A stretch of DNA of 64,000 bases from a virus: positions 7,985-71,984 of IMG/VR virus record IMGVR_UViG_3300033149_003459. One strand, written 5' to 3'. The first letter of the stretch is position 1, and the number at the start of each line of letters is the position of its first letter. Shown one piece after another: positions 1-32,761 of this stretch. The position numbers were made by a program, and so were the translations under genes. The notes under the pieces were generated by a model. That model was not told the DNA's origin, did not search any database, and saw nothing but the letters and a program-made list of their open reading frames with translations.

Positions 1-2
1 GC

Positions 3-671
3 AGGGGACCGGAGCTGCTCGACAAGCCCATCGAGGAGTTGCTGCCGATCTCGTTCGTCGGCGCGGCCGCGGTGTCAGCCTATCGGTCATGGATCAGGAA
101 ACTCGACAGCCTGCCGATGGCCGAGGAGCAGAAGCGGGAGACGCTCCGCGACGGCCAGAACGCGGGCAAGATGCTCCTGGCCATCGAGGCGCGGATCGGG
201 GAGCTGCTGCCGCGAGGTGATCGTGCGGGATGGATTCGAACGGAAGGATCTACAAAGAAAGCAACACGACTGAACTTGCCCATTGACGGGAAGCGAGCTC
301 ATGTGGCGAGACAGATATTCAACAACCCCGACGCCGTGGCCGAGGTCATCGCCGAGGCCGAGGAGAACGGGGACATACCCACCAAGACGGCCGTGCTGAA
401 CAAGGTGAGGGATCGGAGGAGGCGGGAACGGGCTCATGCCTATGCGAAGGATCGGGTTGAGGCTCCACCAGAGTTGTCGCGCTTCCTTGACGCATGCATC
501 ACGCGGCAACGGCAGACCAACATCGTGCTGAGCGACATCGTGCGGAACAAGGAGTACCTGCCTGAGAGCAAGCTTGAGGAGTTCGTTGGGGAGGTCGTCT
601 CCACCCTGCGGATACTGTCCACCGATAGATCGCTTAGGAGGATCATGCATGTTGACAGAGAGACAACTTGA
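3..671 (+). CDS. Hypothetical phage protein, 5'-truncated by the window edge
   Basis: Frame open to the window start; the LLAIEARIGELL segment resembles the helical N-terminal domain often fused to phage methyltransferases. Confidence 0.6.
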   Translation, partial: RGPELLDKPIEELLPISFVGAAAVSAYRSWIRKLDSLPMAEEQKRETLRDGQNAGKMLLAIEARIGELLPRGDRAGWIRTEGSTKKATRLNLPIDGKRAHVARQIFNNPDAVAEVIAEAEENGDIPTKTAVLNKVRDRRRRERAHAYAKDRVEAPPELSRFLDACITRQRQTNIVLSDIVRNKEYLPESKLEEFVGEVVSTLRILSTDRSLRRIMHVDRETT

Positions 672-1098
672 GCGGGTGCGCCAGCAGCTTCGATGTTCCG
701 TCGTTGAGGACGTGTTCTTTGACGGCAGGTACCCGAAGATGCAACTCCTATCGAAGGAGGACATCTATCGGGAGCTCGGCATCCCGTATGCTGACGGCGA
801 CTATTTCCAGATACGCGGGATTGACAGTGTCCTTGGTAGGGTACTGGCTGATCTTCGGAAACACCTTCACTTGCGCAACCTAAACTTCGTATCCATTAGG
901 GTGTCGCTGGAGGACGGGCATTCCTACGTTCTGTACGGGTTCACGAATGACGTCAACAAAATAGACGAATGCATATTGAGGTGGAAGAGGTTCTACTATT
1001 GTGGAAGGAGGAACGCCGAAAGGGTTGAACATGCCGGAGAGAAACAAAAGCGTCTTCTTCTCGCAGGGCAGGGGAAACTCCTCGGTTCGCAGCGATGA
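649..1098 (+). CDS. Hypothetical protein
   Basis: ATG at 649 after AGGAGG; lower-GC ORF with no recognised motif. Confidence 0.6.
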   Translation: MLTERQLERVRQQLRCSVVEDVFFDGRYPKMQLLSKEDIYRELGIPYADGDYFQIRGIDSVLGRVLADLRKHLHLRNLNFVSIRVSLEDGHSYVLYGFTNDVNKIDECILRWKRFYYCGRRNAERVEHAGEKQKRLLLAGQGKLLGSQR

Positions 1099-1195
1099 AT
1101 ATAGGGGGCGCTATTTGACGGTTTACGCTGGGCGGCATCTACAGGCGGGTGCCTTGATGGGCGCCTGTACAAAATCATTCTGAGGAGGCCAGGAG

Positions 1196-1810
1196 ATGGC
1201 TACGATCACGGTTCCGATGCTGAACGTTCAGGTCTGCAAGCTGCGCATCCGGGGCACCACACCCCTGATAGTGCACAGGTTCACCAAGAAGGCGCAGCAG
1301 CAGATCATCGACAAGCAGGGCGGCAAGGCCGCCAACAAGAAGGCGGCGAAGATAGCCGAGAAGGAGTTCGAGGACGCCAAGTACAAGCTGCCGGACGGGC
1401 GCGACGGGTTCCCGGCGGTGGCGTTCAAGACGGCCGCCGTGAGCGCGTGCCGCTACGTGGACGGGCTGAAGATGACGCACGTGCGCGGCGCGATGCACGT
1501 GATGGGCGAGGTGGTCGACGGCGTGCCGACCAACCTCGTGGCGCTCGACTGCGACGAGCCGGAGCTGCGCTCCGACCCGGTCACCATCAGCCTGGGGAAG
1601 AGGGACATCCGGCACCGGCCGCAGTACAACCGGTGGCAGACCACGCTGACCATCCATTACAACGCGAACGTCATCACGGTCGAGCAGATCGTGAACCTTT
1701 TCAACAACGCTGGTTTCGGCATCGGGGTCGGCGAGTGGCGGCCGTCGAGCCAAGGATCGTCACAGTTCGGCATGTTCGAGGTGGTCGGCTCTGACGAGGT
1801 TGCGTCGTGA
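1196..1810 (+). CDS. RAMP/Cas7-like protein, candidate effector of a GGY-NN repeat-guided (VIPR-like) system
   Basis: 204 aa, RBS AGGAG. N-terminal strand LRIRGTTPLIVH, the FPAVAFKTAAVSA helix (equivalent to RAMP IPGSSLKGA) and the C-terminal glycine-rich loop AGFGIGVGEWRP...FGMFEV are RAMP-like hallmarks; no other cas effector genes or CRISPR array present. Confidence 0.75.
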   Translation: MATITVPMLNVQVCKLRIRGTTPLIVHRFTKKAQQQIIDKQGGKAANKKAAKIAEKEFEDAKYKLPDGRDGFPAVAFKTAAVSACRYVDGLKMTHVRGAMHVMGEVVDGVPTNLVALDCDEPELRSDPVTISLGKRDIRHRPQYNRWQTTLTIHYNANVITVEQIVNLFNNAGFGIGVGEWRPSSQGSSQFGMFEVVGSDEVAS

Positions 1811-2340
1811 GCGCGGCGAGGGGTGAGAGGCCGACGTGGCGCGCCGGGTCGCGTTTCAGCGCGGACCCGGCCATGGTCGCGAGGGAGCTCAGGGTGCTTC
1901 ACCGGTTCACGTCCGTCCGCGACCAGGTGCGCCACCTCCGGGAGCACGAGGGGGAGTTCCCGACCCTGTGGGGGATACTCCCCACCGACGCGGACTCCGC
2001 GCTCTACGAGCTGCAGGTGGCGACGCTGCACCAGGTGTACACGTCGCTCGACCTTGAGGTCGACGTCACGGGCGGGGACGCTGGCAGCAGGACTATAACG
2101 GTTCGGGCGTTCCCGAGCAACCCGGACGGCCGGGGCTACGTGGAGATATCGCGCATCACGGAGGCCGACGACCGCAGGGGCTACATCGACAGCATCGAGC
2201 GCCGCATCAACGGCCTGCGCAGGGAGCTGTCCGACACGCAGGACTACTTCGAGCGGCGCGGGTACGAGTTCCCCGAGCGGTACGGCGCGCTGCGGCGCGA
2301 CCTTGAGCAGGCGCTGGTCTCGTGGGAGGGCGGCGCGTGA
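1807..2340 (+). CDS. Conserved-type phage protein coupled to the RAMP-like gene
   Basis: GTGA start/stop overlap with 1196..1810; ends 3 nt before the pentamer array; motifs WRAGSRFSADPAMVARELR and VRAF...GYVEI. Confidence 0.7.
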   Translation: MSAARGERPTWRAGSRFSADPAMVARELRVLHRFTSVRDQVRHLREHEGEFPTLWGILPTDADSALYELQVATLHQVYTSLDLEVDVTGGDAGSRTITVRAFPSNPDGRGYVEISRITEADDRRGYIDSIERRINGLRRELSDTQDYFERRGYEFPERYGALRRDLEQALVSWEGGA

Positions 2341-2343
2341 TGT

Positions 2344-2696
2344 GGCAGGCGGGGCGCGGTCAGGTAGGGTAAGGTACGGTGTGGCGCGGCGCGGCGCGGC
2401 TGGGCAGGCAAGGCTGGGTTCGGCGTGGCAAGGCGCGGCAGGGCAGGGCAAGGCGCGGCAGGCGCGGTTTGGCAGGCACGGCGAGGCATGGCAAGGCCGG
2501 GCGTGGCAAGGCAAGGCATGGCAGGCAGGGCGCGGAATGGTTAGGCTGGGCGTGGTTAGGCTGGGCGTGGCATGGCCCGGCAGGCGAGGTTTGGCTGGGC
2601 GTAGTTAGGCATGGTTCGGCAAGGCAAGGCATGGCAGGCAAGGCAAGGCGGGTCGGGGCGAAGCTTGGTTAGGCACGGCTTGGCATGGCTGGGTTT
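2344..2696 (+). repeat. Array of 65 GGY-NN pentamers punctuated by 7 GGCA tetramers; putative guide-RNA array
   Basis: Parsed by hand in register; 61 of 65 pentamers begin GGC or GGT with a variable dinucleotide; GGCA at 2344, 2403, 2457, 2471, 2520, 2579 and 2633; fills the intergenic space. Confidence 0.92.
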
Positions 2697-2703
2697 GTGA
2701 GGT

Positions 2704-3273
2704 GTGCAGGTGGGTGATCTGATACGGTGGTCCGAGATACACAGGCAGATAGTAGAGGCGCGCGACTTCGACACGATAGGGGCCATGCGCGGGAAGCTGG
2801 AGGTGCTCGACGTTGTCGCCAGGCAGCGGCACGAGAGCCTGCAGGTCCGCAACCGCATAGACCGCTACCACATAGAGCTGGCGTGGCGGGCGGCCGAGCT
2901 GTACAAGCAGCTCCCGGAGAGCCGCGGGCGCAGGAGGGCCGGGGATGGCGGGTCCACCTCGAAGCAGGACGCGCTCGACGGGCTCGGCGTGGCGAAGACG
3001 ACGATGTCCCGCTGGGTCGAGACGCTCGACATACCGTTCAAGCGGCGGAAGCTCGACACCTACGAGGCCCGGTGCGACGACGAGGACCGCCCGCTGACGT
3101 TCCAGGGGTTCCGCAAGTTCGCGCTCGACGGCGACGAGCGGCTGCGCGGCGTCAAGCGGCGCGTCACCATCATCATGCGCGGTGGGGAGCCGGTGGAGGT
3201 GCGGAACTGTCCGTCCTCCATCGAGATCGAGGTGTACGACGAGGACTTCGACGAGCGGAGGCTGCTCACGTGA
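2704..3273 (+). CDS. Hypothetical phage protein with HTH-like segment
   Basis: HIELAWRAAELYKQLP...LDGLGVAKTTMSRW; same general family as 3..671. Confidence 0.6.
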   Translation: MQVGDLIRWSEIHRQIVEARDFDTIGAMRGKLEVLDVVARQRHESLQVRNRIDRYHIELAWRAAELYKQLPESRGRRRAGDGGSTSKQDALDGLGVAKTTMSRWVETLDIPFKRRKLDTYEARCDDEDRPLTFQGFRKFALDGDERLRGVKRRVTIIMRGGEPVEVRNCPSSIEIEVYDEDFDERRLLT

Positions 3274-4403
3274 CCGGCATCGAGAAGTTCATGGCCGCCA
3301 TAAACGAGCGGTTCGGGGAGAACACGATACTGCGCGCGTCCGACCTCCCGACGCTCGGGCGCGTGTCCACCGGGTCGGTCGTCCTCGACTGGGGCATAGG
3401 CGGCGGCATAGCCATCGGCCGCATCACGGAGCTGTACGGCTACGAGTCGGTCGGCAAGACGCTCGTCGCGCTGAGGATAGTGCGCAACTTCCAGGAGGCG
3501 TTCCCCGAGCGCTCCGTGGCGTGGGTCGACACGGAGCAGTCGTGGGACGAGGAGTGGGTGCGCCGCGTGGGGGTGGACCCGGCCCGCGTCTGGATAGCGA
3601 AGCCGGACACGCTGAACCAGGCGTTCGACATAATGGACGTGTTCGCACGCACCGGCGACGTGTCGCTCGTGGTGCTGGACTCCCTCGGGGCGTCCGCCCC
3701 GCAGGAGGAGCTCGACGTGTCCATGGTCGACAAGAAGGCCGCCGGGCTCAAGGCGCGGACCGGGAACTGGGGCATGCGCAAGCTGCAGTCGGCGCTGAAC
3801 TACTCCCGTAGGATGGGCCATGAGTCGACCATCCTCGTGATAAACCACACCTACATGGGCCTGTCGGGGTTCCGCCCGACGAAGGAGACGCCCGGCGGCA
3901 AGGGCAAGGACTACGCGGACGCGCTGAAGGTGGAGCTGTTCGTCCGCAAGGAGCTGCGGTACCCGAAGGAGATCGACCCGAACGAGGACCAGTACGGCCA
4001 GCGCGTAGGGTTCTATGTCAAGAAGTCCAAGGTCGGCATCCCGCACAGGCGCGGGGAGTTCGAGGTGTTCATCCAGCCGTACCACGGCTACGACGTCGGG
4101 GACTTCTCACTGCTTGAGTACGTGCCGTTCCTCGTGAACGCTGGCATCCTGTCGAGGACCGGTGCGTGGTACACGCTGCCCGACGGCGGGCGCGTGCAGG
4201 GGGCGCAGGCCGTGGCTGACTGGCTTCGCGGGCTCGACAGTGTCGAGCTTGACACGATGAGGAGGGAGTGCCTTGAACGAGTTGCCGAGCTGGATGTACC
4301 GGACGAGCAAGGAGATGAGCCGGAGGCAGGAGACGCGGCTGGCGAGGGAGCTGGGCGGGACGGTGCAGCGGGGGTCGGGGAACCAGCCGACGAGACCGGG
4401 TGA
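3270..4403 (+). CDS. recA: RecA/UvsX-like recombinase
   Basis: STGSVVLDWGIGGG, GRITELYG, Walker A GYESVGKT, VDTE, Walker B LVVLDS, TPGG; GTG start overlapping the upstream stop. Confidence 0.93.
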   Translation: MTGIEKFMAAINERFGENTILRASDLPTLGRVSTGSVVLDWGIGGGIAIGRITELYGYESVGKTLVALRIVRNFQEAFPERSVAWVDTEQSWDEEWVRRVGVDPARVWIAKPDTLNQAFDIMDVFARTGDVSLVVLDSLGASAPQEELDVSMVDKKAAGLKARTGNWGMRKLQSALNYSRRMGHESTILVINHTYMGLSGFRPTKETPGGKGKDYADALKVELFVRKELRYPKEIDPNEDQYGQRVGFYVKKSKVGIPHRRGEFEVFIQPYHGYDVGDFSLLEYVPFLVNAGILSRTGAWYTLPDGGRVQGAQAVADWLRGLDSVELDTMRRECLERVAELDVPDEQGDEPEAGDAAGEGAGRDGAAGVGEPADETG

Positions 4404-4596
4404 TGTCCTGCTCGACGACTTCCTCGTCGAGGCTAAGATAACGAGGGCGTCGCAGTACACGCTGAGGGCCGCGTCGGTCGAGAAGATCGACAGGGAGGCG
4501 GCGAGCCAGAACCGTGACTGGGTCCTGGTCATAGAGATGGCCGGGCGGCGGCTCGCCGTGGTGTCGTACGACACGTTCAGGGAGGTGGTATGCTGA
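4294..4596 (+). CDS. Holliday-junction-resolvase-like PD-(D/E)xK nuclease
   Basis: QETRLARELGG...GSG...GDV...LVEAK. Confidence 0.75.
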   Translation: MYRTSKEMSRRQETRLARELGGTVQRGSGNQPTRPGDVLLDDFLVEAKITRASQYTLRAASVEKIDREAASQNRDWVLVIEMAGRRLAVVSYDTFREVVC

Positions 4597-5429
4597 AAGA
4601 CGTCATCAGGAACATCCGCTCCCAGGAGGGGGCGCTTGTTGACGAGCTCGACCACTGGCTGATGACCGGGTGCCAGGAGGAGCCGGACGCTGAGACCGTG
4701 GCGCGGCGCGCGCGGTACCTGCACCCCTCCGCGATGGGGAGGTGCTCCAGGGCCGTGGTGTACGAGAAGATCGGGGTGTCGTCCGGGCGCTCGGTGAGCG
4801 CGCAGCTGCAGCGGGTGTTCGACAACGGGCACTCGTTCCACCGGCGCATGCAGCGGTACTACGGCGCGATGGGCGTCCTGCACGGGACGTGGGCCTGCGA
4901 CGCCTGCGGCAAGCGGTGCCGCGTCCACGGCGCGCAGCCGGGGTGCCCTGAGCGTGCCGCACCGGCATGGGAGTACCTTGAGCCCAGGTTCAGGGACGAG
5001 GAAGAGCGCATATCCGGCCGGTGCGACGGCATCGTGTTCCACGGGGGCCGGAGGCTCGTGCTTGAGTTCAAGTCGATAAACAACAGGGGGTTCGTCTCGC
5101 TCTCCGGTCCGAGGCACGACCACATGGCCCAGGGGCAGCTGTACGCCCACGAGTTCCGAGCCGACGGGGTGGTGTACCAGTACGAGAACAAGGACACGCA
5201 GGCGATACGCGAGTACGTGATGCCGCGGGACGACATGCAGATACTGCTCCTGCTGGAGAAGGCCCGCGACATATGGAAGTGCATACTGACCGCCACGCTC
5301 CCGGCCCGCGTGTGTCCGTCGGTCGCTGACGCATACCGGTGCGACTACAAGGACGTGTGCTTCAACGAGTTCTTCGATCCAGCACCGTATTTTGAATCGT
5401 GGAGGGAACGATATGGCGCAGAGCTATGA
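4590..5429 (+). CDS. Cas4-like/RecB-family PD-(D/E)xK exonuclease
   Basis: HPSAMGRC, FDNGHSFH, GRCDG, LEFKS, QGQLY and a C-terminal Cys cluster. Confidence 0.85.
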   Translation: MLKDVIRNIRSQEGALVDELDHWLMTGCQEEPDAETVARRARYLHPSAMGRCSRAVVYEKIGVSSGRSVSAQLQRVFDNGHSFHRRMQRYYGAMGVLHGTWACDACGKRCRVHGAQPGCPERAAPAWEYLEPRFRDEEERISGRCDGIVFHGGRRLVLEFKSINNRGFVSLSGPRHDHMAQGQLYAHEFRADGVVYQYENKDTQAIREYVMPRDDMQILLLLEKARDIWKCILTATLPARVCPSVADAYRCDYKDVCFNEFFDPAPYFESWRERYGAEL

Positions 5430-5928
5430 CGAGAAGGTGACCGAGTACAAGGCCACGCGCGAGGGCATGGCGGCCGCACTGAGGAACGACCTGCCGACGC
5501 CGCGCAGGCTGGAGCAGCAGGAGATAGACTTCGCCAACGGGTTCATGTCGCAGAACGTGGCGACGCTCTCCGACGAGGTGCTCATGCGGTACTTCCACCT
5601 GTTCGTGGGGCTGCACGACTACGCCGGATGGGAGCTCGCCGCGTCGTCGGCCGACCTGGAGGCCGCGACGGAGGTGTACAACTTCACCGTCGCCACGGTG
5701 AAGCTCCAGGCTCCCGACGGCATGAAGCCGAGCCAGGCCGACGCCTGGGTGAAGACCCGGATGGAGATCCAGCGGCTGAACCAGGAGCGGCTGAACCAGC
5801 GGGCGCGGCACGAGCTGCTGAAGGCCCTGACGAAGGGCTACGAGGAGAAGTCCAAGCTCTGCAGCCGGGAGATGACCCGTCGCCTGAGCGCGGCGAACAT
5901 AAACTCCACGAAGCTGGGCGTCACGTGA
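5413..5928 (+). CDS. UvsY-like recombination mediator (tentative)
   Basis: Helical protein ending SREMTRR, within the RecA/nuclease module. Confidence 0.5.
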   Translation: MAQSYDEKVTEYKATREGMAAALRNDLPTPRRLEQQEIDFANGFMSQNVATLSDEVLMRYFHLFVGLHDYAGWELAASSADLEAATEVYNFTVATVKLQAPDGMKPSQADAWVKTRMEIQRLNQERLNQRARHELLKALTKGYEEKSKLCSREMTRRLSAANINSTKLGVT

Positions 5929-6605
5929 TCCCGGCGGTGTTCTCGTACGGCATGCCGAAGACCGGCACCACGCTCATGCTCAAGGCGTTCATGCGGTGCC
6001 GCGGGGTATACTACTGCCGCATCCGCGAGGGGTACTCGATACACCCGATGAACAGCGAGACGGGACTGTGCGACGTCGTGCGGTGGAACGGGGGCCACCC
6101 CATCGTGCTCGTGCGGACCTACCGGCACCCCGTCGACGTGATGGAGGCGCTGTTCAGGATTCACGCGGACTGGGGCGACGCTGAGCTCCGCAGGTTCGTC
6201 GGCTTCTACCGCGCGGAGTTCGAGAACACGGCGCGGTGCGTGCGCAGGATACTGCGCGGGGAGTGCAACAGCCCGCAGTACCCCACGCGGGTGGTGTTCG
6301 CCGAGATAGAGTTCGGGGGCATCGGCAGGGGGCCGATCCTGGAGGAGTTCCTGGCGCGGCTCGCGGGGCCGCTCAGCCCCATGGCGGTCGACGCCGTGCG
6401 GGGGTACCTGACAGGGACATGGGGCCGCAGGCCGTCGCGCGACGGCAGGCTGAGGCGGATCATCGAGGGGCGGCCGGTGCCCAATATCCTCAGCGACCGG
6501 CAGATCGACTACGTCGTCACGGAGCTGTCCGACGTGATAGCCGCCATGCGGTTGCGGTATAGCAACCGCCTCGACGGGTGGGAGGACGAGTATGGGAGAC
6601 GATAG
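5925..6605 (+). CDS. Sulfotransferase-like protein
   Basis: PAPS-binding loop YGMPKTGTT and 3'-PB-like RHPVDV. Confidence 0.7.
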   Translation: MIPAVFSYGMPKTGTTLMLKAFMRCRGVYYCRIREGYSIHPMNSETGLCDVVRWNGGHPIVLVRTYRHPVDVMEALFRIHADWGDAELRRFVGFYRAEFENTARCVRRILRGECNSPQYPTRVVFAEIEFGGIGRGPILEEFLARLAGPLSPMAVDAVRGYLTGTWGRRPSRDGRLRRIIEGRPVPNILSDRQIDYVVTELSDVIAAMRLRYSNRLDGWEDEYGRR

Positions 6606-7509
6606 GTGGAAGGGCTTCGAGCGCAAGGTGGCGGCCAGGTTCCGGGGACGGCGCGTGGTGCGGCCGGACTGGGGGAAGCCGGACCTCGACGTGGTGGCCG
6701 AGCCGTTCGGCATCGAGTGCAAGTACCGCAAGAGCTTCTCCTACGAGCGGGCACTTGCCGAGGCCGAGCATATTGTGGATACTGTTCCTGAGCGGTCCGG
6801 CCTGCTGCCGCTGGCGGTGTGCCAGCACCCGGGCGAGCGCGGGCGCGAGATGGTGGCCTTCCGCCTCGGCATGCTCGGCAGCGTGCTCGGCGTGGCGTTC
6901 GCGTCCAAGGCGTTCGACGAGGTGGCCGTGATGCCGCTGAAGTATTTCATGGCGTCAGGGAAGGCGATCAGGATCAGGTGCGAGGGGACGGAGGCGCTCC
7001 CGCTTGACGACCTCTGCGACCTACAGGGGACGCTGAAGGTGCTGACCGACGAGAACGCGGCGAAGCTGCGCGAGAGCATCCTGCGGTTCGGTTTCTCGTT
7101 TCCGGTGTTCGTGTGGGGCAGGGCCAAGCGTTACATCGTGGACGGGCACCAACGCGTCGAGGTCCTGAAGCGCCTGCGCGACGAGGGGTACGAGGTGCCG
7201 GACATACCGGTGGTCCCGATCCATGCTTCGTCGAAGGCCGAGGCGAGGAAGAAGCTCCTGACCGCCGTATCGCAATACGGCGACGTGTCGGTCACCGGGC
7301 TCGCCGACATGCTTGACGACATGGACGCCGCCAACATGGACCTGTCGTCCGTGGTGGCCATGCCGGGCATCGACCTGTCGGGGTTCTTCGAGTCCCTTGA
7401 GTCGGACGGCATCCCGGTCACTGATGGCGTTGCGCCGGTGGCCGAGGACACCGACATCGACACGCTCGCCACCAGCATGGAGTGCCCGAAGTGCGGGTAC
7501 CGGTGGTGA
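6592..7509 (+). CDS. Resolvase-like nuclease fused to a ParB/Srx-like domain
   Basis: N-terminal KGFERKVA...PDLD...IECK; C-terminal KLRESILRFGFSFPVFVW...IVDGHQR; terminal CPKCG. Confidence 0.7.
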   Translation: MGDDRWKGFERKVAARFRGRRVVRPDWGKPDLDVVAEPFGIECKYRKSFSYERALAEAEHIVDTVPERSGLLPLAVCQHPGERGREMVAFRLGMLGSVLGVAFASKAFDEVAVMPLKYFMASGKAIRIRCEGTEALPLDDLCDLQGTLKVLTDENAAKLRESILRFGFSFPVFVWGRAKRYIVDGHQRVEVLKRLRDEGYEVPDIPVVPIHASSKAEARKKLLTAVSQYGDVSVTGLADMLDDMDAANMDLSSVVAMPGIDLSGFFESLESDGIPVTDGVAPVAEDTDIDTLATSMECPKCGYRW

Positions 7510-7910
7510 GCACGGACCGTGACGCTCCGGTGGGAAGGAAGAGGTCGTACACGATGTCGCGGATACGCAGCAGCGGCACTCGGCCGGAGCTCATGGTCGA
7601 GTGGTTCCTGCACACCGTCGGCGCGTCGTTCGAGTGGCAGCCACGAATCCACGGTCGGCCGGACTTCCTCGTCGAGGGGCGGGTTGCCGTGTTCGTCGAC
7701 GGGTGCTTCTGGCATGGCTGCCCGGAGCACTACAGGGAGCCTAAGACGCGCGCGAGTTTCTGGCGGGCCAAGATATCAAGGAACAGGGGGCGCCGTGAGG
7801 AGGTGCTTCCGGTCCTGCGCCGCTCCGGGTACACTGTCATAAGCATATGGGAGCACGCCGTCAATGACGGATCGTACAAGGGCGAGCTTTGGCTGGCGAT
7901 GCCCCGGTAG
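7506..7910 (+). CDS. vsr: Very-short-patch repair endonuclease
   Basis: RSYTMSRIRSSGTRPE, PDF, FVDGCFWHGC, FWRAKISRN. Confidence 0.92.
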   Translation: MSTDRDAPVGRKRSYTMSRIRSSGTRPELMVEWFLHTVGASFEWQPRIHGRPDFLVEGRVAVFVDGCFWHGCPEHYREPKTRASFWRAKISRNRGRREEVLPVLRRSGYTVISIWEHAVNDGSYKGELWLAMPR

Positions 7911-7925
7911 ACCCATTAGACACAT

Positions 7926-8945
7926 ATGCAGTATGGAGATAGGATGCTGAGCAGGGTTCCGACTGTTATCTCAACGTTTGCCGGATGCGGTGGGTCATCG
8001 CTCGGTTACAGGTGGGCAGGTTTCAATGAGCTGCTCGCAGTGGACTTCAACGCCAACGTGGAGCGGTCGTTCAACGCCAACTTCCCAGACGTCCCGTTCT
8101 GGCGGCGCGATATCACCGAGGTCACGGCCGGGGAGGTCCTGTCCTTCTGCGGAATCGGGAAGGGTGACCTCGACGTTCTTGACGGGTCGCCACCGTGCCA
8201 GGGATTCTCGATAGCCGGAAAGCGCAACATACAGGACCCGAGGAACAGCCTGTTCGGCGACTTCGTGCGGCTTGTATCCGGGCTGCGCCCGAAGGTGTTC
8301 GTCATGGAGAACGTTCCGGGCATGGCTATAGGGACATACCGCGGTGTCTTCAACGAGGTGTTGACGGTCCTGCGGTCCACCGGCTACTCGGTGCTGTGCA
8401 GGCTGATGAACGCGGCGAACCATGGCGTCCCGCAGAGCAGGCGGCGTCTCATCTTCATAGGGGTGCGGCCTGACCTCGGAGTGCCACCGGTGTTCCCAGA
8501 CCCGCTCGGCGGCGTCATGACATCCGGCGACGCCATCGACGGGGTGGACAGCTCCGACGAGGAGCTTGCGTGGGCCAGGTGGCTGGCTGATGACCATGAC
8601 TGCGCGTCATCGAAAATTGTCAAGAGAGCATTTCTACTGATGAGACCCGGCGAGAATGGATCAAGATATTTTGATGGTAAATATTTTAACTATGTCAAAC
8701 TGCATCCTGACAGGCCGTCGCCGACCATACTGACGATGCCGACAGGGTACAGAAACCGTTACTTCCATTGGAGTGACGCGCGCAATATAACCGTGTCGGA
8801 ATGCAGGCGGCTCTGCTCGTTCCCGGATTCGTTCAGGCTGTCCGGCAGGCTCCATGAGCAGTGGACGCAGCTCGGCAACTCCGTGATGCCGCGCTTCATG
8901 GAGGCCGTGGCCGGGACCGTCAAGAGGGACATACTGGGGGTATGA
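7926..8945 (+). CDS. DNA cytosine-C5 methyltransferase
   Basis: FAGCGG (motif I), GSPPCQGFS (IV), ENV (VI), QSRRR (VIII), QLGNSV (X). Confidence 0.95.
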   Translation: MQYGDRMLSRVPTVISTFAGCGGSSLGYRWAGFNELLAVDFNANVERSFNANFPDVPFWRRDITEVTAGEVLSFCGIGKGDLDVLDGSPPCQGFSIAGKRNIQDPRNSLFGDFVRLVSGLRPKVFVMENVPGMAIGTYRGVFNEVLTVLRSTGYSVLCRLMNAANHGVPQSRRRLIFIGVRPDLGVPPVFPDPLGGVMTSGDAIDGVDSSDEELAWARWLADDHDCASSKIVKRAFLLMRPGENGSRYFDGKYFNYVKLHPDRPSPTILTMPTGYRNRYFHWSDARNITVSECRRLCSFPDSFRLSGRLHEQWTQLGNSVMPRFMEAVAGTVKRDILGV

Positions 8946-8946
8946 C

Positions 8947-9300
8947 ATGCCGAGGACTCTGAAGCAGATCGTGGCGAACTGGGAGCACTACGGGACGGTC
9001 GACGCGCAGGACCTCGCCGCGCTGGTCCGGGCCGTCAGGAAGCACGACCACACGGTCGCCGTGCTTGAGGGTAAGGTGCTGTCAGCCGAGTCGGACAGCA
9101 GGCGGCTGATGAGAGAGGTCGACGCGCTGCGCGACTACAAGGGAAGGACGCTCCACAGGCTGAAGAAGCTTGAGGAGGAGGTCCGGGAGCTGAGGAAGGC
9201 GGCCGCGATCCGCGGCCGGGAGACCGGGCAGGCCGGGGGCGGGGCGGTCTCCCTGGAGGGAGAGAACGATGAGGGACATGATCGAGAACATCGAGCTTGA
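8947..9300 (+). CDS. Hypothetical coiled-coil protein
   Basis: ORF in operon register. Confidence 0.5.
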   Translation: MPRTLKQIVANWEHYGTVDAQDLAALVRAVRKHDHTVAVLEGKVLSAESDSRRLMREVDALRDYKGRTLHRLKKLEEEVRELRKAAAIRGRETGQAGGGAVSLEGENDEGHDREHRA

Positions 9301-10006
9301 CCCGCCGAGTAGCAGGCTCGTGACCGTGAGCCACACGGTCATGGTCCTGGACCGCAGCGGGTCCATGCAGGCGATCCGCAGGCTGGCCGTCGACGGGGTG
9401 AACGAGCAGATCCAGGCGTGCAAGCGGGCCGAGACGACGTTCAAGAAGCGGTTCACGCTCGTGACGTTCAGCACGTTCGTGGACGACCCCGCGTTGCTGG
9501 CCGTCGACGTCGACGCCCTGTCGGGCACGTACCTGACGATGGAGGACTACCGCCCGGACGGCCTGACCGCGCTGTACGATGCGGTCGGCAAGACCATCAG
9601 GATGTTCGAGGAGCGCGACAGGGGCGGGTCCACGTTCCTGTTCTGCGTGCTGTCGGACGGGCAGGAGAACAACTCCGTGGAGTTCGACGGTCCGGGGCTC
9701 GCCGAGCTCATACAGGCGAAGACCGGAAAGGGCAACTGGACGTTCACCTACCAGGGCACGGGTGTGGACCTCTCGGTGATGCGGTCGCTGAACATTCCGG
9801 AGGACAACATCCAGGTGTACCGGGACTTCTCTGACCGGAGCTTCGCCACCCTGACGTCGGACAGGGCCGTGGGCACGCAGCTGTACTTCGCGTCGCTGTC
9901 GAACGGTGACATGTCATCGAGCGACTTCTACACGAGCTCTGGTGTAGAGGTCTACCCGAACCAGGAGGATGGCGATGCCCGGCGGCCGCAAGACGATACT
10001 GAATGA
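9269..10006 (+). CDS. von Willebrand factor A domain protein
   Basis: MIDAS motif VLDRSGSM, TALYDA, SDGQEN. Confidence 0.88.
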   Translation: MRDMIENIELDPPSSRLVTVSHTVMVLDRSGSMQAIRRLAVDGVNEQIQACKRAETTFKKRFTLVTFSTFVDDPALLAVDVDALSGTYLTMEDYRPDGLTALYDAVGKTIRMFEERDRGGSTFLFCVLSDGQENNSVEFDGPGLAELIQAKTGKGNWTFTYQGTGVDLSVMRSLNIPEDNIQVYRDFSDRSFATLTSDRAVGTQLYFASLSNGDMSSSDFYTSSGVEVYPNQEDGDARRPQDDTE

Positions 10007-10523
10007 GGAGCTCTCCAGGCAGTACTGCAACTACGTCAAGATCGGCATGACCGAGAAGGACGCGGCCGTGCTGTGCGGGGTGGACATCACCACCGTGATG
10101 CAGTGGAAGCGCAAGGGCCGCGCGGCGTACGACGACGACACCGTGGAGTTCGGCGAGAGCACGAACATGTACGTCGACTTCTTCCTTGAGGTCGACAAGG
10201 CCAAGCGCTTCGCCAAGCAGCTGTGCCTGCAGACGATAGTGCAGGCGCTGCCGAGCGACCCGAAGCTGTGCCTGACGTGGCTCGGGCGGAAGTACCCGGA
10301 TGAGTGGGGCCGCAAGGACTGGCCCCGGATGCAGCAGAACACGCTCGTGCTGCAGGAGACGGGGCTCATCGGGAAGGATGGGAGAATTGACGTCGACGGA
10401 ATCCGCGAGAGCATTGCTCGCGCACGGCGAACCTTCACTATCGACGATATTGGAGCTCAGGAGCGACTTGTGCCTGGAGATGGAGCGGCTGCTGACAATC
10501 CAGGAGCAGGCACGGCTTCCTGA
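9969..10523 (+). CDS. Terminase small subunit
   Basis: N-terminal HTH (GMTEKDAAVLCGVDITTVMQW), WLGRKYPDEWGRKD; directly upstream of TerL. Confidence 0.75.
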   Translation: MAMPGGRKTILNEELSRQYCNYVKIGMTEKDAAVLCGVDITTVMQWKRKGRAAYDDDTVEFGESTNMYVDFFLEVDKAKRFAKQLCLQTIVQALPSDPKLCLTWLGRKYPDEWGRKDWPRMQQNTLVLQETGLIGKDGRIDVDGIRESIARARRTFTIDDIGAQERLVPGDGAAADNPGAGTAS

Positions 10524-13041
10524 CGTCCAGGCGGACGCCGAGTACACGGAGGCGCTTGAACTCACCATAGTGGAGCTCGCGCAGTGCCTCGATGCCATCC
10601 AGGGCTCCGTCGAGCTGTACGACAGCACCCTCCGCTACGCCGAGGACCCGGTCCGGTTCATCAACAACGAGTGCTCCCTGTTCAACCCGGACAAGGAACC
10701 GGCCATAATGCCGTTCCACCTGTACGACTACCAGGCCGAGTTCATCGAGAGGCTGCACATTGCCTACAGGAACGACGAGTCGCTGCTCACCGAGAAGACC
10801 CGGCAGATGGGGATGTCGTGGCTCTACATGGCGTTCTTCCTGTGGGCGCTCCTCTACGACCCGGACTTCTCGGGCATCGTGCTGAGCTACAACATCCGGC
10901 TGGTCGACGACGGCGGGTCGGAGAGCAGCATCAACTCCCTGCTCGGCAAGCTGCGCTTCATGTACGACCTCCTGCGCGCGCCGCTGCGCGGGGTCCTCGC
11001 CGTGAAGTACCTGAACGTGCGCAACCTGCGCACGAGCGCCTACCTCGTCGGCGAGACGGCGCACCCGAACGCGGGGCGCGGCGGGTCGTACAAGATAGGG
11101 CTGTGGGACGAGACCGCGCTGTCGGTTAAGAGCGAGGAGGTGTTCAGCGCCTTCTACCAGGCCACGCGGTGCAGGTGCTACAACTCGACTCCGCGCGGCA
11201 AGGGCAACGTCTTCGCCCGCCTGCGGTTCGCGGCGGAGTCCACGGTGAACGTCGTGACGCTGCACTGGACGCTGCACCCGGAGAAGGGCGCGGGCGCGGT
11301 GCAGAACAAGGACGGCAGGTGGACGTCACCGTGGTACGAGCACGAGTGCCGGGACATGACCCCTGCGCAGATCGCGCAGGAGCTCGACATCGACTACGAG
11401 ACGTCGGTCGAGGGCAGGGTGTACGAGAAGTTCAGGAGCACGGTGCACGTGCTGAAGGAGGCCCCGGAGTTCCGGCCGGAGTTCGAGACCATCATAGCGT
11501 GGGACCTCGGCGTGGCCGACGACACGTTCGGGGTGGTGTTCCAGCGGGACCCGCAGGGGTCGCTCCTCGTGTTCGACGAGGTGGTCGGGACGGACGAGGA
11601 CATAAGGTTCTACATAGACCTCGTGTGCGGGGTGCGCCCGTCCGAGCTCGACTATGTGTTCGACAAGAAGCTGGAGGCGTACGAGCGGTTCCTCGGCAAC
11701 GCGCAGGAGCACGACTACGCGGGGTTCGTCCAGGTGGCCGGGCCGGACGCGGGCCAGCGCAGCATAAACAGCAAGACCTCCGTCCGCCAGCAGTTCACGA
11801 CGGCCGGGCAGATCGGCCGCGCCAGCGGCAGCTCAGACAGGCGGTACAGGGACATGCGGATGGTCGCCATGAGCGGGTACAAGATCCTCGACCGGATAGT
11901 CGCCACCAGGAAGGTGATGGACCCGGCGAGGCAGCGGTTCTACGTGTCCCCGGTGTGCGTGCACACCATAGAGCACCTGTCGAACTACGCATGGACGAAG
12001 ACGTCGGAGGGCATGAACAGGGAGGTGCCGGATCACAACTGGGCCTGCCTGCGCGGTGATGTCAGGGTGCGGACGCTCAACGGATGGGTTCCGATATCGG
12101 AGGTGTCCGCTGGGGACTTCGTGTGGGGGTACTCAGAAAAGGAGCGCCGCCTGGTTCCGGCTGAGGTCGGCAATGCCGGAAGGACGGGCGTCAATGCAAG
12201 GCTCCTTGAGGTCGGCATAGACAGCGGCCGGTCGCTGTTCTGCACGCCGGAGCACCGGCTCATGCTGAGGGACGGCTCGTACCGGCGCGCCGATGAGCTG
12301 GCCGTCGGTGACGGTCTGATGCCGTTCTACGAGAGACTGAACAGGAGCTACATCCGCGTTGACCTCAACGACGGGACGTTCGCCGATGAGCACAGGTTCG
12401 TGTACAGCCGGTTCAACGGTTCGCTTGGGGAGACCGGTCTCCACGTCGACCATATCAACCACAACAGGTTCGACAACAGGCCTGAGAACCTGCAGCTGCT
12501 GTCTGTGGATGACCACTGTCAGAAGACGTTCCGGGGGAAGAGCGCCGAGGAGAGGAGGCTGGTGGACGCCACACCTGAGCGTGATTTCTACAACTCACGG
12601 TCCGGCTACTTCAAGTGGTGCAAGAACTGCGGGGAGGAGTTCTTCGGGACGCACAAGCGGGCTTACTGCTCTCCGCGCTACCGTGATGAGTACAGGAAGA
12701 TGCGCGATAGGGCGCAACTCATTCCGAGCCGGTCCGACGAGGCCAGGCTTGAGAAGAACAGGAAGGCGGGGGAGAAATACCGCAGGAACGGGAAGAACCA
12801 CAAGGTCAGGTTCATACGCTCCGCGGCCTCCGCCGACGTGTACGACCTGTCCGTACCTGAGCTCGGAAACTTCGTCGCCGAGGGTGTGGTGGTCCACAAC
12901 TCGCACGGGGCTGACGCCGTCGGGTACGGCGTGCTGTACTTCTCAAGGAGGCGCGAGGTGAGGATGAAGCCGGACCTGCACGGGGACCGCGTGCGCCGGA
13001 CGACCCGGAACCTCGGCACGCCGATGAGGGTTGGAAGGTGA
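10378..13041 (+). CDS. Terminase large subunit containing an intein
   Basis: Q motif (LYDYQ), EKTRQMGMSW, WDE, STPRG, AWDLG, and the nuclease motif HNWA/SHGADA split by the intein; start may instead be 10480. Confidence 0.93.
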   Translation: MGELTSTESARALLAHGEPSLSTILELRSDLCLEMERLLTIQEQARLPDVQADAEYTEALELTIVELAQCLDAIQGSVELYDSTLRYAEDPVRFINNECSLFNPDKEPAIMPFHLYDYQAEFIERLHIAYRNDESLLTEKTRQMGMSWLYMAFFLWALLYDPDFSGIVLSYNIRLVDDGGSESSINSLLGKLRFMYDLLRAPLRGVLAVKYLNVRNLRTSAYLVGETAHPNAGRGGSYKIGLWDETALSVKSEEVFSAFYQATRCRCYNSTPRGKGNVFARLRFAAESTVNVVTLHWTLHPEKGAGAVQNKDGRWTSPWYEHECRDMTPAQIAQELDIDYETSVEGRVYEKFRSTVHVLKEAPEFRPEFETIIAWDLGVADDTFGVVFQRDPQGSLLVFDEVVGTDEDIRFYIDLVCGVRPSELDYVFDKKLEAYERFLGNAQEHDYAGFVQVAGPDAGQRSINSKTSVRQQFTTAGQIGRASGSSDRRYRDMRMVAMSGYKILDRIVATRKVMDPARQRFYVSPVCVHTIEHLSNYAWTKTSEGMNREVPDHNWACLRGDVRVRTLNGWVPISEVSAGDFVWGYSEKERRLVPAEVGNAGRTGVNARLLEVGIDSGRSLFCTPEHRLMLRDGSYRRADELAVGDGLMPFYERLNRSYIRVDLNDGTFADEHRFVYSRFNGSLGETGLHVDHINHNRFDNRPENLQLLSVDDHCQKTFRGKSAEERRLVDATPERDFYNSRSGYFKWCKNCGEEFFGTHKRAYCSPRYRDEYRKMRDRAQLIPSRSDEARLEKNRKAGEKYRRNGKNHKVRFIRSAASADVYDLSVPELGNFVAEGVVVHNSHGADAVGYGVLYFSRRREVRMKPDLHGDRVRRTTRNLGTPMRVGR
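12046..12900 (+). mobile_element. Intein with HNH homing endonuclease in TerL (285 aa)
   Basis: Starts CLRGDVRVRT; block B CTPEHRL; HVDHINHNRFDNRPENL; block F VYDLSV; ends VVHN before Ser. Confidence 0.93.
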
Positions 13042-29563: not shown

Positions 29564-29566
29564 CGG

Positions 29567-32500: not shown

Positions 32501-32761
32501 GGCGAGCTCGCGCGCAGGCTCAAGGTGGGCGACATATGGGAGGAGTGGTCGCTGAGCAGCTACAGCCACGGCGCGTCACCGGCGTTCGGCTCGATGGACA
32601 CGATCCTGCGCGTGCCGAAGAGCACCAGGGGCGTGAACATCCAGCACGTCACGCCCCTGCACCACGGCGAGCGCGAGGTGCTGTACCCGCGCACGAGACT
32701 GAGAGTGAAAAAGATAGAAAGTTATTCCGGGCAAGATTATATTACATTCGAGGAGGTGTGA
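29567..32761 (+). CDS. MuF/minor head protein with an intein and a C-terminal ADP-ribosyltransferase-like domain
   Basis: DPCRFWEGKVLS...HPNC/VHS minor-capsid motif; C-terminal SRG, SSYS and EREVL (R-S-E ART-like). Confidence 0.82.
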   Translation: MPRPPGWYVNGMNETLEDSIRRMKRFNARYNREMHTLFQAEEAFRRTNWEAMSVRDKKQMVRRAIGHRVDDMGKIHILCKDGKTRRYDADKWSETMARTRSRALQEEGLHNEMARHGLDLVMVSVGGSGDPCRFWEGKVLSIAGKTPGYQTVAAARREHIFHPNCVVDGQVPVHTVDGLVPIKEVRVGDLVLTHRRRYKKVASTMTRSALVGEKYVRIRFNGSIRFPSVTGEHPVLTGSGWKRAVDVEPGDKVYVLHDHDCPQCGRPVFVGHEFCGLSCKSRYHIIRNTTAGRYDDARKKHSRTMKRLYRSGAITAATEKAHEATRALVREGRHPFQRPDNHLKAARALGSRGKTSFIERKICWLLEQKGMSFEAQYCFNRRVSFKNGQPRRYFIDVAIPEYRIAIECDGAYWHANTDEDAKRQQEIEDAGWTVVRFSEKQIRNDLQSCGRVIDRLLRNHRREYRLMAIPVRAVEVRELRRNRKVYNLSVVEDESYLIGKCGWAVHNCVHSTSPFIVGGGEEQEIIGRDDLPDAAREQFLGNPDLLPRATVALNRLGAVVHEATRDEFTGLRELLRESDSLSGVRLDEDALELRVGGGFDPSDSNMRSLIREANRHDIRVRFPEGDTGRLLQARMLRVLDEPFASKGFSGPGYVADIRKVSRHHFASGVTRDSYAAFAHDYAALLDRYRQFGVPPTMVSRMQAGRVMEYSERAAQRYRWSTTVKGIDSLRMTRVRLEPRAFFSQNSDDVIREVLGAGLDPKHAMTEVRFTVPPSDAYHVANLNRHLSELGYLPDMRHSDTLARINTGDKRFARRALRDWDAKNKKYRLLYKRLGIEGAFDKLIDPEMSLLRGEIESAVDSLLNARTVAAKGLSEGMVTPWMSRAEANRLCPVRDAQKVVDLGTNRPSSGQAALVWDDIRSWKGSSTGYRMQERFLLGDRSYTGGDRGQFFDEGIRRLNAFVANGPKYRGMISRGIETRGELARRLKVGDIWEEWSLSSYSHGASPAFGSMDTILRVPKSTRGVNIQHVTPLHHGEREVLYPRTRLRVKKIESYSGQDYITFEEV
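30059..31087 (+). mobile_element. Intein with DUF559/Vsr-like endonuclease (343 aa)
   Basis: Starts CVVDGQVPV; block B VTGEHPV; YFIDVAIPEYRIAIECDGAYWH; VYNLSV; ends VHN before Cys; lower GC than flanks. Confidence 0.9.

What the first reader, a model, noticed from the sequence alone, without database searches (positions are those of the whole stretch)
2344..2696. Array grammar: GGCA tetramers split the array into guide-sized blocks
The 5-nt register slips by one base only at GGCA (2344, 2403, 2457, 2471, 2520, 2579, 2633), giving blocks of 11, 10, 2, 9, 11, 10 and 12 pentamers. NN strings: (1) GG GC CA AG AA AC GT GC GC GC TG; (2) AA TG TC GT AA GC AG AG AA GC; (3) GC TT; (4) AC GA AT AA CG GT AA AA AT; (5) AG GC AT TA TG GT TA TG GT AT CC; (6) GA TT TG GT TA AT TC AA AA AT; (7) AA AA GG GG GA TT TA AC TT AT TG TT. 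Six blocks of 45-60 nt, each with 18-24 variable bases, look like separate guides with a processing or filament-capping signal. Local duplications (GGTTA GGCTG GGCGT twice at 2539-2568; GGCAA GGCAA GGCAT GGCA at 2505 and 2618) suggest diversification by slippage or recombination rather than spacer integration.
Basis: partly seen in the sequence, partly recalled or inferred. Interest (0 to 1): 0.85.

Follow-up and report, generated by a model that had tools for sequence, protein, structure and literature searches.

The report
Staggered VIPR guide-RNA array in phage
This is the guide-RNA array of a phage VIPR system, a recently described RNA-guided DNA-silencing system related to CRISPR, and its GGCA one-base slips mark the borders between separate guides, an arrangement already named in a 2026 preprint but not yet tested by experiment.

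Summary
Window 2344-2696 holds 65 GGYNN pentamers. The only register slips are seven GGCA tetramers at the stated positions, giving blocks of 11, 10, 2, 9, 11, 10 and 12.

It is a VIPR vrRNA array. The gene 534 nt upstream (1196-1810) is a Vipr protein: its profile matches the solved SUSP1 Vipr at E=4.9e-17, it has a Cas7/Csm3-like fold, and its GGY-reading residues are conserved.

The GGCA grammar recurs in unrelated loci. In 22 viral arrays, 75% of 114 GGCA-to-GGCA blocks hold 8-14 pentamers, against 25% for random placement. Sixty-four bacterial-genome loci show the same main mode. Published vrRNAs hold 9-16 repeats.

The discovery preprint (10.64898/2026.04.26.720920) describes "staggered arrays" of vrRNAs that overlap by 1 nt, which is this architecture, and says it did not confirm them by RNA sequencing.

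So this is a new member of a known kind. No target above chance was found for the window's guides.

New details: GGCA is the dominant slip, arrays often end with 2-unit stubs, and staggered arrays are linked to one Vipr clade and one accessory-gene family.

The parts
1196..1810 (+). vipr gene: Vipr protein, a minimal RAMP/Cas7-like subunit of 204 aa
   Evidence: A profile of 29 homologues matches PDB 36pp_D 'SUSP1 Vipr protein' at E=4.9e-17 over nearly its full length. The AF2 model has pLDDT 91.9. The top Foldseek hits are Csm3/Cas7 chains, e.g. 6xn3_F at E=8.8e-7. H27, R141, E180, W181 and R182 align to the GGY-binding H17, R138, D177, W178 and R179 of SUSP1 Vipr. It matches phrog_4652 at E=7.7e-28.
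1807..2340 (+). Accessory ORF between vipr and the array. It is probably a divergent member of the small accessory family found at this position in related loci. Its true start may be the ATG at 1873.
   Evidence: hhalign against a 78-sequence profile of the positional family gives 79.8% probability and E=1.5e-5, over 53 C-terminal columns only. The control ORF 2704-3273 gives 0.4%. It has no Pfam family. Beyond itself it has one real homologue among 1.84 billion representatives, and that homologue aligns from residue 26.
2344..2696 (+). Staggered vrRNA array: 65 GGYNN pentamers and 7 GGCA boundary tetramers, at 2344, 2403, 2457, 2471, 2520, 2579 and 2633
   Evidence: It lies on the same strand as vipr, as do the arrays in all 30 of 30 related loci with a near-full-length Vipr. 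It has no significant RNA structure (z=-0.88). The window has no Rfam family.
2348..2402 (+). Block 1: 11 pentamers, putative guide
   Evidence: Exact 1-nt-skip target scans found 0 hits in viral and metagenome contigs.
2407..2456 (+). Block 2: 10 pentamers, putative guide
   Evidence: The exact target scan found 0 hits.
2461..2470 (+). Block 3: a 2-pentamer stub between two GGCA, too short to be a guide. It resembles the 2-unit stub that ends many related arrays.
   Evidence: Nineteen of 95 related arrays stop exactly 2 units after their last GGCA. Blocks of 0-2 units make up 14% of 378 blocks in the genome set.
2475..2519 (+). Block 4: 9 pentamers, putative guide
   Evidence: There is one exact 18-of-18 match, in L129, but the backwards control pattern also gave one match. 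The match is therefore what chance gives.
2524..2578 (+). Block 5: 11 pentamers, putative guide, holding a perfect tandem duplication of three units
   Evidence: Exact target scans found 0 hits.
2583..2632 (+). Block 6: 10 pentamers, putative guide
   Evidence: The exact target scan found 0 hits.
2637..2696 (+). Block 7: 12 pentamers with two degenerate units and no closing GGCA. The last three units may be a degenerate boundary plus a 2-unit stub (inference).
   Evidence: An exact target scan with the first 10 units found 0 hits.
2704..3273 (+). Downstream ORF of 189 aa with no known family. It is not shown to belong to the system.
   Evidence: It has no Pfam or PHROG family and no homologue in 120 array-bearing viral loci. 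hhalign to the accessory family gives 0.4%.

Best explanation
The region is the guide array of a phage-encoded VIPR system of the 'staggered' architecture.

The locus reads vipr (1196-1810), a small accessory gene (to 2340), then the array (2344-2696), all on one strand and probably in one transcript.

Published work on other VIPR systems establishes the following. Each GGYNN pentamer binds one Vipr protomer. The GGY bases are held by protein. The NN pairs are exposed and pair with double-stranded DNA that carries the same dinucleotides with one skipped base between them. The result is silencing of a competing mobile element.

In this array the guides have no structured 3' tail. Each guide is instead a run of 9-12 pentamers bounded on both sides by GGCA. 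That is a unit one base short, or equally a pentamer GGCAG that shares its last G with the next unit.

My inferred mechanism is as follows. Two neighbouring protomers share each GGY, so the missing base breaks the 5-nt register of the Vipr filament. Each block then assembles its own filament of 9-12 protomers, and the junction is where the transcript is cut or trimmed. This yields six guides and one 2-unit stub.

New guides seem to arise by duplication and divergence of units and blocks, not by Cas1-type insertion (weakly supported).

Shown here: the grammar, its conservation and spacing, the Vipr protein and its residues. Taken from the literature: pentamer-per-protomer binding and the 1-nt-skip pairing. 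Inferred: cutting at GGCA, the phase-break, and the origin of guides.
For: Vipr identity: profile match to the solved SUSP1 Vipr at E=4.9e-17, a confident Cas7/Csm3-like model and conserved GGY-contact residues.

Linkage:
- 81 of these 120 loci, and 64 of 120 genome loci, encode a Vipr by profile search within the stretch fetched.
- In 30 of 30 loci with a near-full-length Vipr, an array lies on the same strand within about 720 nt.

Grammar:
- GGCA accounts for 156 of 330 4-nt units in the viral set and 526 of 710 in the genome set.
- Viral-set blocks between GGCA (22 loci, 114 blocks) have a median of 10 pentamers. 75% fall in 8-14, against a mean of 25% and a maximum of 39% in 2000 random placements.
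- After dropping the longest block of each locus, 74% of 92 blocks still fall in 8-14.
- NN entropy stays at 3.4-3.9 of 4 bits at every position of a block, so there is no fixed handle besides GGCA.
- Arrays tend to start 1-3 units before the first GGCA (26 of 95) and stop 2-3 units after the last (29 of 95).

Clade: on a FastTree of 134 Vipr rows, the window lies in a supported set of 45 rows, of which 36 have staggered arrays. The label needs 20 changes against about 44 when shuffled, and 0 of 500 shuffles were as low.

Literature: 9-16 repeats per vrRNA, the 1-nt-skip rule, and staggered arrays overlapping by 1 nt. One protomer binds per repeat, neighbouring protomers share a GGY, and vrRNA length sets filament length.

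Anecdotal support from other staggered arrays: the best 1-nt-skip matches of GGCA-delimited blocks lie in frame in ORFs with the skipped base at the wobble position. These are L017 to L109 (19 of 20), and L171 to L098 and L021 (17 of 18 each). Matching falls to chance level just outside the block: 1 of 12 flanking variable bases for L017, and 5 of 14 for L171.
Against: - There are no RNA data, so the ends at GGCA are untested. The preprint itself says staggered arrays were not among the architectures it confirmed by small-RNA sequencing.
- No target above chance was found for any of the window's six guide-sized blocks. Exact scans of viral contigs gave 0 hits for five blocks. Block 4 gave 1 hit, equalled by its backwards control. 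Two metagenome scans gave 0 hits.
- In the local test of 246 blocks against 3.9 Mb, the 1-nt-skip rule gave only a slight excess over the controls. After dropping the circular window-to-L129 hit, best matches with at most 1 mismatch numbered 2 under skip 1, against 0, 1 and 0 for skips 0, 2 and 3.
- Block 3 is too short to be a guide, and block 7 lacks a closing GGCA.
- Some related arrays run for more than 140 units with no slip at all, e.g. L021. A slip is therefore not a universal delimiter.
- The accessory ORF is only a partial, weak match to the family seen in relatives.
- Both locus sets were chosen with patterns that require one long uninterrupted run. This biases one block per locus upward, and the loci are related to each other.
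Confidence: 0.8

Rival explanations
1. The blocks are separate guides, but GGCA is not a signal. It is a scar of how guides are added or duplicated, for example a junction left by unequal recombination between units. Processing would be set by something else, such as a ruler from the transcript end or host RNases at filament gaps.
For: There is an excess of local duplications. The internal 2-unit stub looks like an array end followed by a new array start. Long arrays with no slip exist.
Against: A scar would not be expected to keep one sequence across many phyla: GGCA is 526 of 710 4-nt units in the genome set. Nor would it be followed by GGC in 89% of cases, against about 70% in block interiors. 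Terminal guides are still closed by a GGCA plus 2 units, which looks like a requirement rather than a by-product.
Confidence: 0.1
2. The whole array is one very long vrRNA that forms one long or irregular Vipr filament, and the GGCA units are tolerated imperfections.
For: The structural preprint states that natural vrRNAs reach up to 30 repeats and that RNA length sets filament length. No promoter, terminator or structured element divides the array.
Against: Slip spacing is far from random and matches known guide lengths. All 7 of 7 slips have the same sequence. In the few target matches found for other arrays, matching stops at the GGCA borders.
Confidence: 0.07
3. The element acts as DNA rather than as a guide RNA. 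It could be a protein-binding or G-quadruplex-prone tract serving recombination, replication or packaging next to the RecA-like gene.
For: The tract is G-rich with GG every 5 nt and lies upstream of a RecA/UvsX-like recombinase and a Cas4-like exonuclease.
Against: Across 30 of 30 loci the array travels with vipr and on its strand, not with recombination genes. tblastn with the window's RecA-like protein hit 1 of 120 loci. Published work shows such arrays are transcribed and bound by Vipr.
Confidence: 0.03

Closest known systems
VIPR 'staggered vrRNA arrays' (bioRxiv 10.64898/2026.04.26.720920, main text and legend of fig. S18)
   Same: A Vipr gene sits beside a continuous GGY/NN pentamer array with no tails. 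Neighbouring guides meet at positions that overlap by 1 nt, which at sequence level is the GGCA-then-GG junction seen here. The system is phage-borne.
   Different: The preprint's main text never gives the junction sequence: 'GGCA' has 0 occurrences. I could not see the figure or the supplementary data. It says it did not confirm this architecture by RNA sequencing. The VIPR type (I-VII) of this locus could not be assigned.
Type II VIPR of coliphage SUSP1 and a Pseudomonas fulva prophage (same preprint; structures in 10.64898/2026.04.26.720927)
   Same: The Vipr is homologous, with the same GGY-contact residues. The repeat is GGYNN, guides hold 9-16 repeats, and a small accessory gene lies next to vipr.
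   Different: [quoted passage not shown] Here no tail or structure exists (z=-0.88) and guides abut. The window's Vipr matched that protein through a profile, not by close identity.
Class 1 CRISPR crRNA with Cas7 backbone filaments
   Same: The subunit has a RAMP fold: the top structural matches are Csm3 chains. One subunit binds per fixed number of guide bases, with periodic bases kept from pairing.
   Different: The period is 5 nt with 3 bases sequestered, against 6 nt with 1. There are no repeat-spacer units, and no cas1, cas2 or cas6 family appeared among the 10 window ORFs scanned. According to the preprints, the target is read with a skipped base.

Membership tests
VIPR system | A Vipr protein (minimal RAMP with RRM core, G-loop and thumb) encoded at the locus | tested here: met
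   Profile match to PDB 36pp_D 'SUSP1 Vipr protein' at E=4.9e-17, covering 180 of 195 profile positions. AF2 pLDDT is 91.9. The best Foldseek matches are Csm3/Cas7 chains, at E down to 8.8e-7.
VIPR system | The residues that hold G1, G2 and Y3 of each repeat (SUSP1 H17, R138, D177, W178, R179) | tested here: met
   Window H27, R141, E180, W181 and R182 stand in the aligned columns, with D to E the only change. H27, R141, E180 and R182 are invariant in the 8-sequence alignment A3. The residues are named in the structural preprint.
VIPR system | An adjacent array of GGY/NN pentamers on the strand of vipr | tested here: met
   There are 65 pentamers, of which 61 are GGY, with 15 of 16 NN types. 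The array lies 534 nt downstream of vipr on the + strand. The same arrangement holds in 30 of 30 related loci.
VIPR system | Guides of 9-16 repeats | tested here: inconclusive
   If GGCA marks the borders, the six long blocks hold 9-12 repeats. The true RNA ends are unknown.
VIPR system | vrRNAs are expressed and bound by Vipr | not testable with these tools
   No RNA holder was listed for the locus.
VIPR system | Natural targets that fit the 1-nt-skip rule | tested here: inconclusive
   Exact scans for six blocks in viral contigs and two blocks in metagenome contigs gave 0 hits, apart from one 18-of-18 hit. A backwards control pattern also gave one hit. There is no self-target: the best match in the phage's own genome is 13-16 matched bases, at most 70% of positions, under the 1-nt-skip rule, and no better than under the other skip rules. 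Only exact matches could be searched in the large collections.
VIPR system | An accessory (vap) gene beside vipr | tested here: inconclusive
   An ORF sits in the right place. It matches the positional accessory family of relatives only over its C-terminal 53 columns (79.8%, E=1.5e-5). That family's model (pLDDT 94.2) has no significant PDB fold match: the best E is 0.32.
VIPR, staggered array architecture | Guides abut and meet at positions overlapping by 1 nt, with no tail or ribozyme between them | tested here: met
   There are seven junctions of GGCA followed by GG. The window has no Rfam family, so no hammerhead. There is no significant fold. This holds at the sequence level only.
VIPR, type II (SUSP1-like) vrRNA | A conserved structured 3' tail (pseudoknot) after each repeat tract | tested here: not met
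   Blocks are contiguous with no spacer sequence. The RNA fold z-score is -0.88.
CRISPR-Cas | A repeat-spacer array with cas1/cas2 adaptation genes | tested here: not met
   The period is 5 nt. No direct repeats of CRISPR size were found. No cas1 or cas2 family appeared among the 10 ORFs scanned. The only Cas-like hit is a Cas4-type PD-(D/E)XK exonuclease at 4590-5429.

The most novel reading that the evidence does not exclude
In this VIPR clade the guide border is written purely as a reading-register shift. A unit one base short stops the Vipr filament and sets the cutting site, replacing the pseudoknot cap of SUSP1-type vrRNAs. The signal needs repeat units on both sides, which would explain the 1-3 leader units and the 2-unit trailer stubs. 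The arrays would grow by duplicating and fusing blocks or whole arrays, with the internal stub at 2457-2470 marking the seam of such a fusion. That would be a tail-less, self-delimiting guide array with a way of making new guides that needs no integrase.
Probability: 0.35. Interest if true: 0.6.

Novelty: new member of a known kind. Interest (0 to 1): 0.4.

Why it matters
VIPR was described only in 2026 preprints, and its experiments cover tail-bearing, ribozyme-spaced and single-guide forms. The staggered form, which this window shows clearly, is stated there but not tested.

The comparative data here make that form concrete and testable. The border is GGCA followed by GGC. Guides are mostly 8-12 repeats. 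Arrays need short leader and trailer units. The architecture goes with one Vipr clade and one accessory family.

If a one-base slip alone sets filament length and processing, it would be the simplest known way to punctuate a guide-RNA array. It would also be useful for building multiplexed VIPR guides.

For this window the practical result is an annotation: a marine phage carries a VIPR locus with six likely guides against unknown competitors.

Tried and rejected
- RNA evidence: one search for sequencing runs listed no RNA holder. It listed only one DNA run, holding 8% of the sampled words.
- Targets in large collections: exact 1-nt-skip patterns for blocks 1, 2, 4, 5, 6 and 7 in viral contigs, and for blocks 5 and 1 in metagenome contigs. 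There were no hits except L129 for block 4. That hit is in frame in a 508-aa ORF that I did not scan against any family library. A backwards control pattern also gave 1 hit, so it is chance.
- Targets locally, allowing mismatches: the window's own genome gave nothing. The 246 blocks against 3.9 Mb of fetched loci gave only a slight excess for the 1-nt-skip rule.
- Consensus promoters and terminators in 900-3400: none found.
- Rfam and tRNA scans of the window: none found.
- Megablast of window 1-12000 against deposited phages: no match.
- The search for related loci with Vipr alignments A1 and A3 in genome contigs failed twice because the alignments were not conserved enough. I used a DNA pattern scan instead.
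- Fold of the accessory family: a confident model, but no significant PDB match. There are only weak winged-helix-like resemblances at E of 0.3 or more.
- Early ideas dropped: a TRAP-like ring-binding site, a centromere or packaging site, and coding repeats. I dropped them once the Vipr link and the literature were found.

Full report
**Observation.** The region 2341-2700 is intergenic. It lies between an ORF ending at 2340 and an ORF starting at 2704, and all convincing genes of the window lie on the + strand.

A parse that allows units of 4, 5 or 6 nt finds one array in the window, on the + strand only. All seven of its non-5-nt units are GGCA, at 2344, 2403, 2457, 2471, 2520, 2579 and 2633. 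The blocks hold 11, 10, 2, 9, 11, 10 and 12 pentamers.
- Of the 65 pentamers, 61 are GGY, and 15 of the 16 NN types occur.
- All seven slips are followed by GGC.
- Only 32% of pentamers begin GGCA, so seven of seven has a chance of about 4e-4.
- The periodic pattern occurs 14 times forward in the 71,984-bp virus record, all inside the array. It occurs 0 times in reverse or in the control.
- The two local duplications exist and exceed shuffled expectation modestly (P about 0.01-0.02).
- TRF's 49-nt period is not evidence of duplication. My estimate is that the fixed GGY alone makes any two blocks about 70% alike.

**Context.** The window is part of a linear IMG/VR virus record that CheckV puts at 86% complete. 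It is a tailed phage, with a portal, a large terminase carrying an intein, and a minor head protein carrying an intein. A RecA/UvsX-like recombinase, a Cas4-like exonuclease and a ParB-like protein follow the array. No Rfam family, tRNA, consensus promoter or terminator was found near the array. The array RNA has no significant fold (z=-0.88).

**What it is.** Many hits show the same grammar, including GGCA slips.

The 204-aa ORF at 1196-1810 has homologues in 49 of these 120 loci by tblastn. By profile search it has homologues in 81 of the 120 viral loci and in 64 of 120 genome loci. In 30 of 30 loci with a near-full-length copy, an array lies on the same strand within about 720 nt.

A literature search then found the explanation. 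This is the VIPR system (bioRxiv 10.64898/2026.04.26.720920), in which a small RAMP protein, Vipr, binds vrRNAs made of 9-16 GGY/NN pentamers. The NN pairs read double-stranded DNA with one skipped base. I read that paper's Results, Discussion, two Methods sections and figure legends, but no figures or supplements.

Membership of the window's protein was tested directly:
- A 29-sequence profile hits the solved SUSP1 Vipr (PDB 36pp) at E=4.9e-17 over nearly its whole length.
- The AF2 model is confident (pLDDT 91.9).
- The best structural matches are Csm3/Cas7 subunits.
- The residues that the structural preprint (10.64898/2026.04.26.720927; abstract, section 5 and passages read) names as holding G1, G2 and Y3 are conserved. 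H27, R141, E180, W181 and R182 align with H17, R138, D177, W178 and R179.

**The GGCA grammar.** The discovery preprint states that, besides tail-bearing arrays, there are "staggered arrays with overlapping vrRNAs". Its fig. S18 legend says the vrRNAs come from positions overlapping by 1 nt, so that the end of one marks the start of the next. It also says that only the ribozyme-spaced and single-guide forms were confirmed by small-RNA sequencing. The string GGCA does not occur in the preprint's main text. "Staggered" has 0 occurrences in each of the other three VIPR-related preprints I searched.

- In the viral set, which was chosen without reference to GGCA, GGCA accounts for 156 of 330 4-nt units.
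- Twenty-two loci have an array with at least three GGCA. Their 114 internal blocks have a median of 10 pentamers.
- 75% of those blocks lie in 8-14, against a mean of 25% and a maximum of 39% in 2000 random placements.
- The selection pattern forces one long run per locus. After dropping the longest block of each locus, 74% of 92 blocks still lie in 8-14.
- A second set came from bacterial genome contigs of many phyla. It was chosen with GGCA plus eight units, so it is also biased for one block per locus. It gives 64 loci and 378 blocks with a median of 9. There is a main mode at 8-12 and a minor mode at 0-2 units, which holds 14% of blocks.
- The window's odd 2-unit block therefore belongs to a recurrent minor class.
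- NN entropy is 3.4-3.9 of 4 bits at every block position. Nothing but GGCA, and the GGC after it (89% against about 70% in block interiors), is fixed.
- Arrays often begin 1-3 units before the first GGCA (26 of 95) and stop exactly 2 units (19 of 95) or 3 units (10 of 95) after the last.

**Links.** Staggered arrays go with one part of the Vipr tree. On a FastTree of 134 rows, the window sits in a supported set of 45 rows, 36 of them staggered. The label needs 20 changes against about 44 when shuffled, and 0 of 500 shuffles were as low. Near relatives inflate this clustering.

Staggered arrays also go with a small accessory gene family that lies between vipr and the array. It is present in 14 of 22 staggered viral loci against 9 of 98 others (Fisher P=2e-7, not corrected for relatedness).

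The window's ORF at that position matches the family only in its C-terminal 53 columns (79.8%, E=1.5e-5; control ORF 0.4%). It has just one real homologue among 1.84 billion representatives. The family folds confidently but matches no solved fold significantly.

**Function and mechanism.** No RNA run holds the locus, so the RNA ends are untested.

No target above chance was found for the window's guides. Exact 1-nt-skip scans gave nothing except one 18-of-18 hit, equalled by a backwards control. There is no self-target.

For other staggered arrays, the best local matches lie in frame with the skipped base at the wobble position, and stop at the GGCA borders. These are L017 to L109 (19 of 20), and L171 to L098 and L021 (17 of 18 each). 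The excess over the other skip rules is slight.

My inferred mechanism rests on the published geometry, in which one protomer binds per pentamer and neighbouring protomers share each GGY. A unit one base short cannot be bridged in register. Each block would then carry its own filament of 9-12 protomers, and the junction would be cut or trimmed. The leader and trailer units suggest the signal needs repeat units on both sides.

The internal stub at 2457-2470 resembles an array end followed by a new start, which hints at fusion of two arrays. The last three units of the array resemble a degenerate GGCA plus a 2-unit trailer. Both points are inference.

**Verdict.** This is a correct observation and a largely correct interpretation of an element whose kind was published in 2026. 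The window is a new member, from a marine phage, of the staggered VIPR architecture. What is missing is RNA-level proof and a target.

Noticed in passing
window 10300-13041 and 29564-32761: Two phage structural or packaging genes appear to carry inteins. The large terminase has an Intein_splicing plus HNH_3 insert. The minor head protein has weak Hint-domain matches plus a DUF559/REase-type endonuclease domain.
   Followed up: no
window 3270-7509: A recombination module lies directly downstream of the VIPR locus: a RecA/UvsX-like recombinase (PF00154, E=5e-41), a Cas4-like PD-(D/E)XK exonuclease and a ParB-like protein. Among the 120 array-bearing viral loci, tblastn with the RecA-like protein hit 1 locus (L118), and the Cas4-like and ParB-like queries hit none.
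   Followed up: partly
window, 13 large ORFs: Codon use is unusual for a 64% G+C phage. ATA is 147 of 371 Ile codons and AGG is 183 of 611 Arg codons. The host is unknown. The one listed DNA run is labelled marine metagenome.
   Followed up: no
L021:6311-7021 (+); also L051: Some Vipr-type arrays run for 142 units or more with no 4-nt slip and no visible spacer. How guides are delimited there is unexplained.
   Followed up: partly
L009:3968-4577 (+): This is an example of the other architecture. Blocks of about 12-29 pentamers are separated by a repeated spacer of about 50 nt that ends in a conserved motif, next to a Vipr gene. It looks like tail-bearing vrRNAs.
   Followed up: no
genome-set loci L130-L249: Blocks of 0-2 units between two GGCA, often GGCA directly followed by GGCA, make up 14% of 378 blocks. 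Their role is unexplained. They could be double borders, array seams or parsing ambiguity.
   Followed up: partly
L109 (- strand, position 332); L098 (- strand, 564); L021 (+ strand, 4700): These are candidate natural targets of staggered-array guides from other loci. L017 matches L109 at 19 of 20. L171 matches L098 and L021 at 17 of 18 each, in a conserved ORF. All lie in frame with the skipped base at the wobble position. L098 and L021 themselves carry pentamer arrays.
   Followed up: partly
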